From Octopus vulgaris (Eukaryota): a stretch of DNA of 64,000 nt. Shown here piece by piece: positions 2,046 through 58,505 of the stretch. Position 1 is the first letter of the stretch; each line of letters begins with the position of its first letter. Both the position numbers and the translations under genes were made by a program. The stretch is taken from the NCBI GenBank assembly GCA_951406725.2, contig OX597817.1, forward strand, positions 172,980,001 through 173,044,000. Reading direction: 5' to 3'. The notes beneath the pieces are model-generated. The model was given only the letters and a program-made list of their open reading frames with translations, was not told where the DNA came from and searched no databases.

Positions 2046-2341
2046 CAGATATGTATTTAAAAGAGAATTTTTTTTTGAATGTAGGCTTATTACTGAGAAG
2101 AAAATTGTAGAACTTTCAAACAAATTCAGTTATTTCAAAAACTGCATAATTTGAGACAGCAATACAAGAGAAATGGAGGAATGAAGATTGGAAAAGCTAA
2201 AGATATTTCACATAAATTAAAATGTGTGTGGCTGTGTGATAAGAAGTTTGTTTCCCAACCACATGATTCCCAATGTCTTCTACAACAACCTTAGACCAAC
2301 CAAAGCCTTGTGAATGGATTTGGTAGATGGAAACTAAAAGA

Positions 2342-2583
2342 AACTAAAACAAGACGACAAGCTGGCAGAAACGTTAGCACGTTGGGCGAAATGCTTAGCA
2401 GTATTTCGTCTGCCATTACGTTCTGAGTTCAAATTCCGCCGAGGTCGAATTTGCCTTTCATCCTTTCGGGGTCGATAAATTAAGTACCAGTTACGCACTG
2501 GGGTCGATGTAATCGACTTAATCCCCTTGTCTGTCCTTGTTTGTCCCCTCTGTGTTTAGCCTCTTGTGGGCAATAAAGAAACA
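2342..2583 (+). mobile_element. SINE family B (tail ...ttagccccttgtgggcaataaagaaa type) nested in family A
   Basis: gctggcagaaacgttagc...GTTCAAATTCC (B-box-like)...ctttcatcctttcggggtcgataaattaagtaccag; TSD ggaaactaaaaga at 2329-2341 and 2584-2596. Confidence 0.9.
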
Positions 2584-2646
2584 GGAAACTAAAAGATGCC
2601 TCTCTCTCTCTGTGCGTGCATCCATGTGTATGTCTTTGTTTGTCTT

Positions 2647-2934
2647 CCTAGCGAAGGTTCGTGACTTGGGTGTTCGGGTATTCAGCTCCTGATCGTGATT
2701 TCAATATCCAGCAGCACGTTGTTCCAGTCCACTCAGTTAGCAAAAATGAGTAGTACCTGTATTCCAAAGAACCAGACTTGTCACATCCTGTGTCACTCTG
2801 AATCTCCATGAGAATTACATTAAGGGTACGTGTGTCTGTAGAGTGCTCAGTTGCTTGCACATTAATTTCACAAGCTGGCTGTTCGGTTGATCATATCAAT
2901 TGGAACCCTCATCATCATGTCTGATGGAATGCCA
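2647..2934 (+). mobile_element. Additional SINE family nested in family A
   Basis: 9-bp TSD gtttgtctt (2638-2646 and 2935-2943); tRNA-like degenerate head; related fragment near 48260-48370 on the minus strand. Confidence 0.7.
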
Positions 2935-3570
2935 GTTTGTCTTGCACCACTGTTTGACAGCCACTGTTGGTTTGTTTGTCCCCATATCTTAACAGTTCAG
3001 CAAAAGAGAATAACAAAGTACTGGGGGTTGATTTATTCTACTAAAATTTTTTAAGGTGGTTCCTCAGCTTGGCAACAGTCTGAGTGAAACAAATACAAGA
3101 TAACACAAGGCCAATACAAAACTATTGATTAAAATAAGAGATAAGGTTTTATAGCGTTAAATTACTAAGCATAGATTTCTCTCACTGAGATAGAGCCATA
3201 AAATTATAGCAGAAATTCAAATCAACATTGGTATATAACAGTCAAAATAACAGAGTGTAAGGAAACTGGTGGTGGTCTGCTTTGGTAAAAATTAGTAATA
3301 CTTATTTTATTGATTTTAGCAGAGTGCTAAATGATTCTTGAAAGGTTTAAGATCAGAATGAGAAAGCAATGTAACTTAATGCAATTTCTCTGCCATTGCT
3401 CTATAACTATCTTTCTCAACCCTTTTTGACCTATGGATCCCTTTGATTCCTATTTTATTGAGGTGGTCCCTCCAAGCCATTCAATATTTAAAAAATCTCA
3501 TTGCATTTTTATAATTAAATATCATTAGGAATTATATAAAAAAAAAATGTGTTAAAATATTTTGTGTATT

Positions 3571-3960
3571 ACTCTTTTACTTGTTTCGGTCATTTGACTG
3601 TAGCCATGCTGGAGCACTGCCTTTAGTCAAACAAATCAACCCCAGGACTTATTCTTTGTAAGCCTAGTACTTATTCTATTGGTCTTTTTTGCTGAACCAC
3701 TAAGTTACAGGGACGTAAACACACCAGCATTGGTTTTCAAGCAATGTTTGGGGGACAAACACAGACGCACAAACGTATACACACACATACATATATACGA
3801 TGGGCTTCTTTCAGTTTCCGTCAATCAAATTCACTCACAAGGCTTTGGTCAGCTCGAGGCTATAGTAGAAGACACTCGCTCAAGGTGCCACATAGTGGGA
3901 CTGAACTCAAAACCATGTGGTTTGTAAGCAAGCTAATTACCACACAGCCACTCCTGCACC
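3571..3960 (-). mobile_element. SINE family A, full length, inserted into a hAT-like MITE (3410-3570 + 3961-4055)
   Basis: Complete head to tail; flanks reassemble into a ttctcaacc...gttgagaacc element like 26933-27179. Confidence 0.88.
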
Positions 3961-55860: not shown

Positions 55861-56074
55861 AATAATAATAATAATAATAATAATAATAATAATAGCTATT
55901 TGTACTATAGGCATAAAGTCTGAAATTTTTGGGAAAGTTGATAAAATTGATCCCAGTACTTGACTGGTACTTTTTTTATGAACCCCGAAAGAATTAAAGG
56001 CAAAGTTGACCCCAGGGAATTTGTACAAAGAATACAAAGATGGATGGAATGGCAAATAATAATAATTTCTTTTA

Positions 56075-56530
56075 TTTGCCAGCAGACGTAAAGGACCTTT
56101 CAAGAAGAAATTAGCAAAACTGGGAGGGAGGTTTGTGTAGAATTGGGAGGGAGGTTTGTGTAGAATTGGGAGGGAGGTTTGTGTAGAATTGGGAGGGAGG
56201 TTTGTGTAGAATTGATTGCGAAAAGAAAAAAAGCAGGCATGCAAAACAAAAGTTCCATGGAAGAAGATATCTCAGTAGGTGAATGTTGGTGGAGAGCCAC
56301 TTAGAACCAATCGAGAAACTCCACAGATTTAGGATTATCCTAACAACTTAGAGCAAGAAACCCATTCTGTGTTCTACTACATACAGTCATATGGTGAGAG
56401 GAAGCCCATCCGTGCAACCATTCTCACCACTTTCATCCACTTCCCAGAAAATTCCCCCACTTTCTTCTCTAACCGGACCTTGAAGAAGTTGATAAAAGCT
56501 TGGCAGAAAAAAAGAGTCGGTCTTCAAATA
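56075..56530 (-). mobile_element. Probable decayed 3' end of a Tx1/L1-like LINE containing a 23-bp minisatellite
   Basis: Minus-strand peptide QAFINFFKVRLEKKVGEFSGKWMKVVRMVARM followed by a UTR ending AATAAAGAAATTATT. Family assignment is from recall only. Confidence 0.35.
56121..56214. repeat. 23-bp minisatellite, 4 perfect units (TGGGAGGGAGGTTTGTGTAGAAT)
   Basis: Direct reading. Confidence 0.95.
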
Positions 56531-56864
56531 ATACTGATAACATTAAGCTGTGGGAAAATAAAGTAAGAAATCTGTAAAATCTATATTTATCACCTAATAT
56601 CTATATTTAGCAGGAAATCACAATGAAAACCAATAATATGAGCAGGAAAAATGTTCACCCAATTTATGTAGATCAATAATAAAGGTTATTACTGGATGTA
56701 CTCTGTTCTTTCTAGGTCAGAATAACTTTACACTGGCCGGGACACAGGAGATATTGTTATGCAGTCACGAAATATAAGTATGAATAAGTCTATATGAATT
56801 CATGAATACAATAAGTGTTTTCTATTATAGACTCAGTAGGTGGATTTGGTAGACAGAAACTGAA

Positions 56865-57095
56865 GACGGCAAGTTGGCAGAAATGTTAGAGCGCGGGGCA
56901 AAATGCTTAGAGGTATTTCGTCTGCTGCTATGTTCTGAGTTCAAATTCCGTCGAGGTCGACTTAGCCTTTCATCCTTTTGGGGTCGATTAAATAAGTACC
57001 AGTTATGCAGTGGGGTCAATGTAATCAACTTAATTCCTTTGTCTGTCCTTGTTTGTCCCCTCTATGTTTAGCCTCTTGTGAGCAGTAAAGAAATA
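56865..57095 (+). mobile_element. SINE family B nested in a family A-related copy
   Basis: TSD agaaactgaa at 56855-56864 and 57096-57105. Confidence 0.88.
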
Positions 57096-58505
57096 AGAAA
57101 CTGAAAGAAGCCCTTAATATGTACATCTATGTATGTGTGTGTGTGTGTGTATGTGTGTGTGTCTGGGTGAGTGTGTTTGTGTAGCATTGTGTGATTGTTG
57201 TAAATGAGTGTTACTGTTATACAATTGGTGTCACTCTATTTTCAAACTTCCACTAAAACACATTCACCTACAGGTTAACCAATAGGCAAATGTGTTTTAT
57301 GCTATATTTACCTTGCTATAGCAAGATAAATATTACCTTGATATATTTATTAACCCACGCAAGAATGGAAAAGAAGACGTTAAAATAGCGATATTGATTG
57401 ATGATGATGATGATGAGGAGGAGGAGGAGGAATAAGTTAAAAAAAGAACAGTAAAATAGATAAGAATTATATTAAGACAAGAATTGTCTCCATAAAAAAA
57501 TGCAAAACTATATAAGTGAATTCATTTGGGAGTGAAATATCGATAATGAATGCAGAAGATGTAACTTAGATGTGTAGTGTTTGCTTATAACAAAAATTCA
57601 GTTTAGGTGCAGGAAAGGCAGTCTGGCTAAGAAGATTGATTCACAACCAAATGGTTCCTGTTTCAAGCCTGCTTTATGACACTTAGGGCAAGTGCCTTTT
57701 GCCACAGCACCAAGCTGACTATTACCTTGTTAGTGGTGAGATTGCATGAGGTTGCATGCAGCCTATATACTCTACTATTACTCATTCTGTACCTCTAGTT
57801 AGCACTTCCTCACCCCTGGGACACTTATCATTGATATCTTTAATTTGCTCTCACCATCCATTCACCTCTACATCTATCCATAACTCTACTACTTCAAACC
57901 AGTCACTGTTTCTATAATCACAGTCTTCCTCCATTCACTCACCCACCTGGTTTTTTTCTGCTAGCATTCACTGGATCTTTTATCTCCTTCTTCAGCCACA
58001 TGACTGAGTAAATGATTATATCACAAAGAAAAGACATTTCTAATCTTATGGGGTACAAAGCACTATAAAATCCCACCAGGACATTCCATAATTTAATTGG
58101 CAAATGTACAGAGATGTGGGTTCAACAGGACCCTCTGGTCATGCCAAGGACATGGCAACCTCTTTAGTGCTGGTGGCATGATAAAGTGTACCCAGTACAC
58201 AATATAAAGTGGAAGCTGTTATGAAGGGTATCCAGCCATAGAAACCAAGCCCAAAATGAAATGTATGAGAGAGGTGTGATCCTCTCACTCATCTAAGAAG
58301 GCAGTAGATCCAAATAAGAATTGACTCAGAAAGTAACGACTAATCCAACACATGCCAGCATGGAAATCACATATAAAATGACAACAATGATGTGATGTGT
58401 GTATTGTATGCATGTAAATGTGTGTGTATGTGCATATGTGCGTATGTGTATGTATGTGTGTGTGTGTATGTGTGTGTGTGTGTGTGTGAGTATATATATA
58501 CATAT

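What the first reader, a model, noticed from the sequence alone, without database searches (positions are those of the whole stretch)
2329..57105. SINE-into-SINE targeting: family B inserted three times at the same GAAACT site of family A-type SINEs
Seen: three full-length B copies of the ...gccccttgtgggcaataaagaaa tail subfamily interrupt a family A-type host at the same position (…GTAGACG^GAAACTGAAAGAAGCC) and in the host's orientation: 2342-2583 (TSD ggaaactaaaaga), 48405-48642 (TSD ggaaactgt(a/g)ca on minus) and 56865-57095 (TSD agaaactgaa). That is three of the four full copies of this subfamily I found; the fourth (4851-5069) lies in family C. Each TSD reproduces the variant of its own host copy, and the 5' junctions differ, which argues for independent insertions rather than one amplified composite. 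Inference: either the partner LINE endonuclease prefers this site, or the AAGAAA-ending tail anneals to the GAAA target during target-primed reverse transcription. The most abundant SINE would then act as a safe-harbour target.
Basis: partly seen in the sequence, partly recalled or inferred. Interest (0 to 1): 0.72.

Follow-up and report, generated by a model that had tools for sequence, protein, structure and literature searches.

The report
One SINE's hotspot inside another SINE
In this animal genome a few percent of the copies of one short jumping repeat sit at one exact base inside another common repeat, mostly where a mutation has made that spot look more like the jumper's own head, which likely reflects a borrowed LINE enzyme treating the spot as a look-alike target.

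Summary
The three insertions and their TSDs are real, and the hotspot holds genome-wide, but 3 of 4 is a lucky draw. Only 447 of 14,132 exact tails (3.2%) lie at this site, 2 of 91 in a chromosome-1 sample, and 1-2 of 26 arrays in the flanking 400 kb. That is still roughly 300-600 times random, and at least 15 times what a motif trained on other targets predicts. Events are independent: 40 distinct 5' junctions among 43 composites, host-private variants duplicated, no host-insert congruence. New here: composites choose hosts with A at +1, mostly from CpG decay (46:6 against 59:163), and T at -4 (12/53 against 2/59). Both changes move the site towards family B's own head site. B's tail matches several L1/Tx1-type LINEs of this genome, and B lineages differ in target start (AGAAA, GGTAT, TATAT). 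No LINE using this site was found. Best reading: a near-cognate decoy of B's self-site, read by a borrowed endonuclease plus short RNA-primer pairing. 'Safe harbour' is unsupported. Precedent: SINEU/Tx1-Mar. The scan noted B's self-targeting and Tx1 tail before on other DNA; my look-ups returned no note on this site.

The parts
2228..2328 (+). Family A host, 5' part (head, internal deletion) of composite 1
   Evidence: alignment to intact A copy
2329..2341 (+). Left TSD, 13 bp, G allele, host-private A at +8
2342..2350 (+). 9-nt partial re-copy of the TSD at the 5' junction
2351..2583 (+). Family B copy 1 (C-tail lineage)
2584..2596 (+). Right TSD of composite 1; host continues to about 2645
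4838..5082 (-). Family B copy 4 (4851-5069) with 13-bp TSD in another repeat; not at the A site
48393..48404 (-). Right TSD of composite 2; host continues to about 48372
48405..48642 (-). Family B copy 2 (48642-48406) plus one extra A (48405) between tail and TSD
48643..48654 (-). Left TSD of composite 2, 12 bp, G allele
48655..48726 (-). Diverged A-type host, 5' part, composite 2
   Evidence: 75 of 103 aligned letters match across the site
56813..56854 (+). 5'-truncated A host (no B box), composite 3
56855..56864 (+). Left TSD of composite 3, 10 bp, A allele
56865..57095 (+). Family B copy 3
57096..57105 (+). Right TSD of composite 3; host continues to about 57194

Best explanation
Family B copies with the C-type tail insert independently and base-precisely at the RGAAACTG site of family A, likely because an L1/Tx1-type LINE machinery borrowed through B's tail treats that site as a look-alike of B's own head site. 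Shown: the hotspot, the independence, the TSD of about 15 bp, the shared tail, the lineage-linked target starts and the host allele bias. Inferred: the endonuclease nicks the bottom strand at sites like B's head (CTGGC^AGAAAC...GCC at +15 to +17). The A site (TAGAC^RGAAACTGAAAGAAGCC) shares +1 to +6 (in the A allele), +10, +13, +15 to +17, -1, -3 and -6, and with T at -4 its purine/pyrimidine pattern from -7 to -1 equals B's. The RNA runs a few bases past the conserved end (AGAAAC or AGAAAU), pairs with the freed primer and starts reverse transcription; the second nick falls about 15 nt on. CpG decay of A therefore creates better landing sites as A ages.
For: 447 of 14,132 tails at the site, 98 of 100 listed at a one-base gap. 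Random expectation 5-10 x 10^-5 per insertion from 100-190 A sites per Mb. A matrix trained on 33 non-A targets predicts a 0.4-2.3% share; observed 17 of 46 unique non-self RGAAA junctions (hand tally, checked). Host allele A:G 46:6 in composites against 59:163 in free A; CA:TG 38:2 against 48:59, p 5e-9; T at -4 in 12 of 53 against 2 of 59 A-allele free copies, p 0.003. The repeat-C site has the same hexamer but another upstream pattern and takes 3 of 46 junctions from 60 sites against A's 37. T-tail copies, when within 10 nt of the site, use the same base in 52 of 54. 51 of 100 RGAAA junctions continue into B's head. B's last 60 nt align to 3' ends of zf-RVT LINEs (best 48 matches over B 4-59, score 74 against shuffle maximum 28); one such LINE has an intact APE-RT-zf ORF closest to human L1 ORF2 in PDB, and some families show repeated flanks of their own. 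The two TSD copies differ at +6 in 9 of 67 against 3% elsewhere, p 2e-4, pointing to RNA-templated bases.
Against: No LINE end was found at the A site or at B's AGAAAC site: 0 of 30, 0 of 30, 0 of 40 sampled LINE loci; 27 of 30 loci were B and the other three showed no LINE ORF. B-into-B junctions at the AGAAAC site carry no visible TSD (0 of 28), so that site as a true target rests on one nested copy in an older relative and on assumed homology-guided 5' joining. Other host positions are not clearly shifted towards B's head, and T at -4 may mark an older A subfamily; composite hosts are more diverged than free A. Generic AGAAA targets show only weak upstream information. One of the nine +6 mismatches (L148) is probably a mis-called TSD, and most loci were selected on the right flank.
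Confidence: 0.5

Rival explanations
1. Inherited flank tags: B has no poly(A) tail, so its transcript runs into the flank. A copy sitting in A carries A's downstream letters, which pair with the nicked primer of any other A copy, so target choice is inherited through the RNA and feeds back on itself (R1Bm-like).
For: Target start follows lineage: C-tail AGA 52, GGT 8; T-tail GGT 23, AGA 2, p 5e-12, and each matches that lineage's commonest tandem junction. +6 mismatches between TSD copies mostly end as C or T on the right (8 of 9). Host G but right-hand A at +1 in 2 loci and an extra A in window copy 2. Explains the excess of both the B head and the A site over the short motif. PMC7265360 (passages) states that R1Bm needs downstream target sequence for accurate reverse transcription.
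Against: A-site inserts do not form a subclade (p 0.08 and 0.19; low power on 162 columns). A primer-side tag cannot explain T at -4. A tag from consensus A would favour the G allele, yet the A allele wins. Most T-tail copies at the A site begin AG, not GG.
Confidence: 0.27
2. Short tail annealing (AGAAA) plus a loose endonuclease, with the A excess due to regional bias: A sites with the decayed allele and AGA-class B copies both pile up in the same methylated regions.
For: AGA-class and A-site inserts show more CpG decay (0.19, 0.23) than GGT and TAT classes (0.10, 0.09) at similar non-CpG divergence. A-allele sites are denser in distal samples (37 in 624 kb against 5 in 365 kb). Tail repeats AGAAATA occur at some junctions.
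Against: Even with the A-rich distal background the motif predicts at most 2.3% against about 37% observed; the repeat-C site in the same regions is used about ten times less per site.
Confidence: 0.1
3. Tethering to Pol III factors bound on family A (as recalled for Dictyostelium TRE elements near tRNA genes).
For: The site lies about 80 nt downstream of A's B box, and both B self-sites lie in a tRNA-like head (sequence).
Against: Composite hosts keep the B box less often than free A (27 of 53 against 182 of 227; 39 of 59 for A-allele copies); window copy 3 has lost it; precision to one base and allele bias are not predicted.
Confidence: 0.07
4. One or a few A+B chimeras amplified as units.
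For: 15 of 45 parsed composites have a 15-bp TSD, many with the same AAGG microhomology join; four identical loci exist (L032-L035, a segmental duplicate).
Against: 40 distinct 5' junctions among 43; host-private variants on both TSD copies in 14 of 24 variant-bearing cases; Mantel r -0.08 and 0.02, p 0.80 and 0.29; hosts 24% apart, inserts 11%; inserts are monomers, multimers, truncations and one 5.8S chimera.
Confidence: 0.04

Closest known systems
SINEU families with Tx1-Mar LINEs inserting into Mariner-N4_AMi in crocodilians (Kojima 2015, PMC4494074; section 14 read whole, other passages)
   Same: A SINE lands repeatedly and independently at fixed positions in another abundant, older repeat; TSD of about 16 bp; tandem copies; a Tx1-type partner is implicated; weak-preference members exist (13-23%).
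   Different: The target here is an unrelated SINE, takes only about 2-5% of copies (SINEU-3: 90%), resembles the passenger's own head, and is preferred in a mutated, non-consensus allele. No partner LINE with this target was found, whereas Tx1-Mar shares SINEU's target. SINEU has snRNA heads.
Tx1L in the Tx1D transposon of Xenopus; Kibi, Koshi, Keno (as summarised in PMC4494074, passages; primary papers not held)
   Same: L1/Tx1-type endonuclease-led target preference for repeats; a LINE of this genome with a B-like tail is followed by (TATC)n in 30 of 30 loci, a few of them short or imperfect.
   Different: These are autonomous and near-exclusive for their target; B uses several target classes by lineage.
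R1Bm / SART1Bm priming by RNA-target pairing (PMC7265360, passages)
   Same: RNA letters at or past the element end pair with the nicked strand and set the start of reverse transcription.
   Different: R1 clade, one fixed target; here pairing is only inferred from junctions, in a non-autonomous element.
Octopus OR1 (CORE-SINE) and Nin/Deu-domain SINEs (PMC4824008 and PMC4758252, passages)
   Same: Family A looks like a CORE-type and family B like a Nin/Deu-type tRNA SINE (labels recalled, not aligned to reference consensus).
   Different: The passages seen say nothing on targets, nesting or partner LINEs of these octopus families.

Membership tests
Tx1-mobilised, repeat-targeting SINE (SINEU type) | Independent insertions at a fixed position of another repeat | tested here: met
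   one-base gap in 98 of 100; 40 distinct junctions among 43; no host-insert congruence
Tx1-mobilised, repeat-targeting SINE (SINEU type) | Variable TSD of about 15 bp, 5' truncation and extra 5' letters (TPRT marks) | tested here: met
   mode 15 (32 of 150), most 11-19
Tx1-mobilised, repeat-targeting SINE (SINEU type) | Link to an L1/Tx1-type LINE (shared 3' end) | tested here: met
   tail; APE, RT, zf-RVT; closest solved protein L1 ORF2
Tx1-mobilised, repeat-targeting SINE (SINEU type) | More than 20% of flanks in the target (criterion in PMC4494074 methods passage) | tested here: not met
   3.2%; 2 of 68 terminal junctions; 37% only within the non-self RGAAA class
Tx1-mobilised, repeat-targeting SINE (SINEU type) | An autonomous LINE that shares the same target | tested here: inconclusive
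   none in 30 + 30 + 30 + 40 loci; samples small against 25,803 zf-RVT candidates
Tx1 clade (candidate partner LINEs) | RT phylogeny groups with Tx1 | not tested
   only L1-clade placement shown; the Tx1 label is recalled and echoed by earlier notes
R1Bm-like flank-primed retrotransposition | RNA carries target-like letters past the element end that template the junction | tested here: inconclusive
   +6 mismatch excess 9 of 67, lineage link; no transcript ends seen
Pol III-tethered insertion (TRE-like, recalled) | Target needs an intact A/B-box promoter | tested here: not met
   B box 27 of 53 against 182 of 227
tRNA-derived Nin/Deu SINE (B) and CORE SINE (A) | Central domain aligns to the reference domain; tRNA-derived head | not tested
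   no reference consensus at hand; ARAGORN found no tRNA, Rfam nothing meaningful; labels recalled

The most novel reading that the evidence does not exclude
Target choice in this poly(A)-less L1/Tx1-SINE system is partly heritable through the RNA: each copy carries a tag from its landing site, so lineages home on their own sites (B head, the A site, TA-rich sites) with no change in the enzyme, and CpG decay of an unrelated SINE opened a new self-reinforcing homing site.
Probability: 0.25. Interest if true: 0.75.

Novelty: new variant of a known kind. Interest (0 to 1): 0.5.

Why it matters
It gives hundreds to thousands of natural insertions into a polymorphic target, which reads out what an L1-clade machine recognises base by base: a host CpG transition raises use about 20-fold in odds, and an upstream change raises it further. 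If part of the choice lies in the RNA flank, a non-LTR system would be retargetable through its RNA, which matters for TE biology and for gene-insertion tools. If it lies in the enzyme, it shows how a self-targeting system spills onto an ageing neighbour. It also warns repeat annotators that A+B composites here are recurrent, not one family.

Tried and rejected
Prediction that T-tail copies would enter A at the GGTAG 7 nt upstream: failed, 1 of 54. Searches for a LINE at the A site or B's AGAAAC site: none (76/79-81). A-site inserts as one subclade: not significant. Pol III tethering: rejected. Single chimera: rejected. Folding of the B and LINE tails: no stability above shuffles (z -1.3, -0.5, 0.25), so no stem-loop claim is made. 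Laying contigs of four public runs on composite 2: single contigs cross the 3' junction in two runs and the 5' junction in one, so the insertion is present there; no empty-site join was among the listed rows, but the tables were swamped by the repeat (1018 joints not shown), so this says nothing on polymorphism. Head variant as guide: three copies with the AGAAT head variant still sit at AGAAAC/GGAAAC sites, against simple head-guiding, small numbers. Rows dropped: 10 of 55 'A-site' labels had no left host half (6 of them were mislabelled non-A); L043 and L353 were mis-parsed and removed for (they are inside the Mantel test); L394, L148, L351 and one nested copy left out of the matrix. Literature: eight searches answered gave no description of this site or of SINE-into-other-SINE targeting at a fixed base; two primary papers were not held; Repbase/Dfam entries and supplements were not seen and may describe these families.
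Full report
Observation. The three composites are in the window as described, with small coordinate corrections. Each host aligns across the site to an intact family A copy once the insert is removed. The fourth full B copy lies in another repeat. 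The four B copies are 90% identical by column and all carry C at the tail position that marks one lineage. The families look like octopus tRNA SINEs (A CORE-type, B Nin/Deu-type); these labels are recalled and were not tested.

How common. The window lies in a 2.8-Gb genome. The exact B tail occurs 14,132 times; 447 are followed within 10 nt by GAAACTG, 98 of the 100 listed at a gap of one base (88 A, 10 G). By eye 28 of the 30 fetched loci have an A-type right flank, four of them one duplicated segment. In 90 loci centred on exact tails taken in order's list on contig 1, 2 of 91 tails (68 terminal) are at the site. In the 400 kb around the window, 26 B arrays include one clean A-site case and one with a deletion; three others lie elsewhere in A (7 nt upstream, in the head, antisense) (hand tally). 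So 3 of 4 is a selected fluctuation. With 100-190 free A sites per Mb, chance for one base and orientation is 5-10 x 10^-5, so 3.2% is roughly 300-600 times random.

Independence. Among 43 correctly parsed composites there are 40 distinct 5' junctions; where the TSD carries a host variant, both copies have it in 14 of 24 cases. Host and insert distances do not correlate (Mantel r -0.08, p 0.80; centred 0.02, p 0.29; 45 rows, two mis-parsed), and hosts differ by 24% while inserts differ by 11%. Inserts include monomers, arrays of 2-4 units, truncated copies, and one full-length 5.8S rRNA joined to the last 26 nt of B (Rfam E 3e-22). A single amplified chimera is excluded for the bulk.

Target classes. 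B has no poly(A); the flank starts right after the conserved end. Terminal junctions start mostly with AGAAA, GGTAT or TATAT, and the class follows the lineage: C-tail AGA 52 and GGT 8, T-tail GGT 23 and AGA 2 (p 5e-12); TAT copies share their own variants (p 0.0005). The T-tail lineage (62,023 exact tails) mostly forms 184-bp tandem units (about 78 of 100 listed) and reaches the A site rarely, 52 of 54 near matches genome-wide, against 299 for the C-tail with the same anchor length (its total was not counted, at least 14,132). Of 100 listed C-tail junctions starting RGAAA (4,464 in all), 51 continue into B's own head, 20 (17 unique) are A sites and 29 are other (hand tally). A-site inserts are not a subclade of the C lineage (p 0.08, 0.19).

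More than a short motif. In 624 kb of unselected DNA there are 37 A-allele A sites, 60 repeat-C sites and 543 other AGAAAC sites. A position matrix from 33 non-A targets predicts an A share of 0.4-2.3%; the observed share is 17 of 46 (the interval printed for 16 of 44 was 22-52%). The site is therefore a true hotspot, at least 15-fold above the motif.

Which hosts are chosen. The A consensus has G at +1 in a CpG. Composites carry A there in 46 of 52 against 59 of 222 free copies; comparing the two decay products, CA:TG is 38:2 against 48:59 (p 5e-9), which regional or later decay cannot produce because it would be symmetric (smaller set). T at -4 is found in 12 of 53 against 2 of 59 A-allele free copies (p 0.003; 11 of 43 against 5 of 62, p 0.025). 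Both changes match B's own head site, which also shares +10, +13, +15 to +17, -1, -3 and -6 with the A site. Other positions show no clear shift, composite hosts are more diverged, and a subfamily effect at -4 is not excluded. Hosts keep their B box less often than free A (27 of 53 against 182 of 227), against Pol III tethering. Two of the three window copies have the less favoured G allele.

Partner. A young LINE with a B-like tail has an intact 1,149-aa APE-RT-zf-RVT frame closest to L1 ORF2 and is followed by (TATC)n. A Pfam search gave 150 scored zf-RVT hits; 40 were fetched, and many end in tails close to B's, up to 25 identical terminal letters or 28 identical internal letters. Some families have repeated flanks of their own; none of the 40 lies at the A site or B's head. 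Targeted pattern searches also found only B there. Earlier notes of this scan report a Tx1 family in a SINE head; I could not confirm which site, and did not find it.

RNA contribution. The right TSD copy differs from the left at +6 in 9 of 67 AGA-class insertions against 3% at other positions (p 2e-4; one probably mis-called), ending as C or T in 8 of 9, the two continuations known from B dimers and from the tail repeat; two G-allele hosts have A on the right. B-B junctions are seamless at the AGAAAC site (0 of 28 with TSD) and mostly so at the GGTAT site (6 of 120 nested with TSD).

Mechanism. Most likely (0.5): an L1/Tx1-type machinery tuned to B's head nicks the A site as its best abundant look-alike, and 5-6 RNA letters pair with the primer. 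Rival (0.27): longer flank tags inherited through the RNA. Regional bias (0.1), tethering (0.07) and chimera amplification (0.04) fit poorly. All enzyme steps are inferred.

Comparison. The nearest described case is SINEU with Tx1-Mar in Mariner-N4_AMi (PMC4494074; section 14 whole, other passages). This case works like it but fails its 20% criterion and lacks an identified co-targeting LINE. RNA-target pairing has precedent in R1Bm and SART1Bm (PMC7265360, passages). A recent octopus repeat annotation (PMC13282606, part 1 of 3 read) lists active L1-Tx1 and tRNA-Deu families and says nothing on targets in that part. PMC4758252, PMC4824008 and PMC3747384 were seen as passages. Eight searches found no account of this site; database entries and supplements were not seen.

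Verdict. Real, independent, base-precise SINE-into-SINE hotspot, minor in share, a side effect of a wider self-targeting system; new variant of a known kind; interest 0.5.

Noticed in passing
L038:1541-1699 (minus) plus adjacent tail: Full-length 5.8S rRNA joined to the last 26 nt of family B, inserted at the same A site with a TSD; likely a template-switch chimera.
   Followed up: partly
L281-L284; L191-L250: Young L1/Tx1-type LINE with many intact 1,139-1,149-aa frames, B-like tail, followed by (TATC)n microsatellite.
   Followed up: partly
L251-L280: Element encoding only an ORF1-like zinc-knuckle protein, with a B-like tail, nearly always followed by ACATG..., often the same downstream repeat; 46 exact tails.
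   Followed up: partly
L459-L464; L467, L468, L470; L453, L480: Three LINE groups with repeated 3' flanks of their own (possible fixed targets or self-stacking; one array with about 5.4-kb spacing on contig 2).
   Followed up: no
genome-wide: About three quarters of T-tail B ends continue as head-less 184-bp tandem units; the tail's GAAATA is complementary to the TATTTC at that junction.
   Followed up: partly
L049 around 1270-1310: 5' junction holds an inverted copy of the whole 18-bp TSD separated by 3 nt; shorter inversions and partial TSD re-copies occur at other junctions, including window 2342-2350.
   Followed up: no
L343, L349, L358 and contig 4 near 172,886,640: A weaker recurrent B site in repeat C, also at Y^AGAAAC.
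   Followed up: partly
L144: Two B insertions whose flanks run into the reverse complement of another B tail (tail-to-tail).
   Followed up: no
window 12310-13100 and 33973-34625 (minus): Clusters of older B-related SINEs with a different 3' tail, in tandem-like order.
   Followed up: no
L032-L035: Four near-identical composites within 1.1 Mb of contig 1, a segmental duplicate.
   Followed up: no
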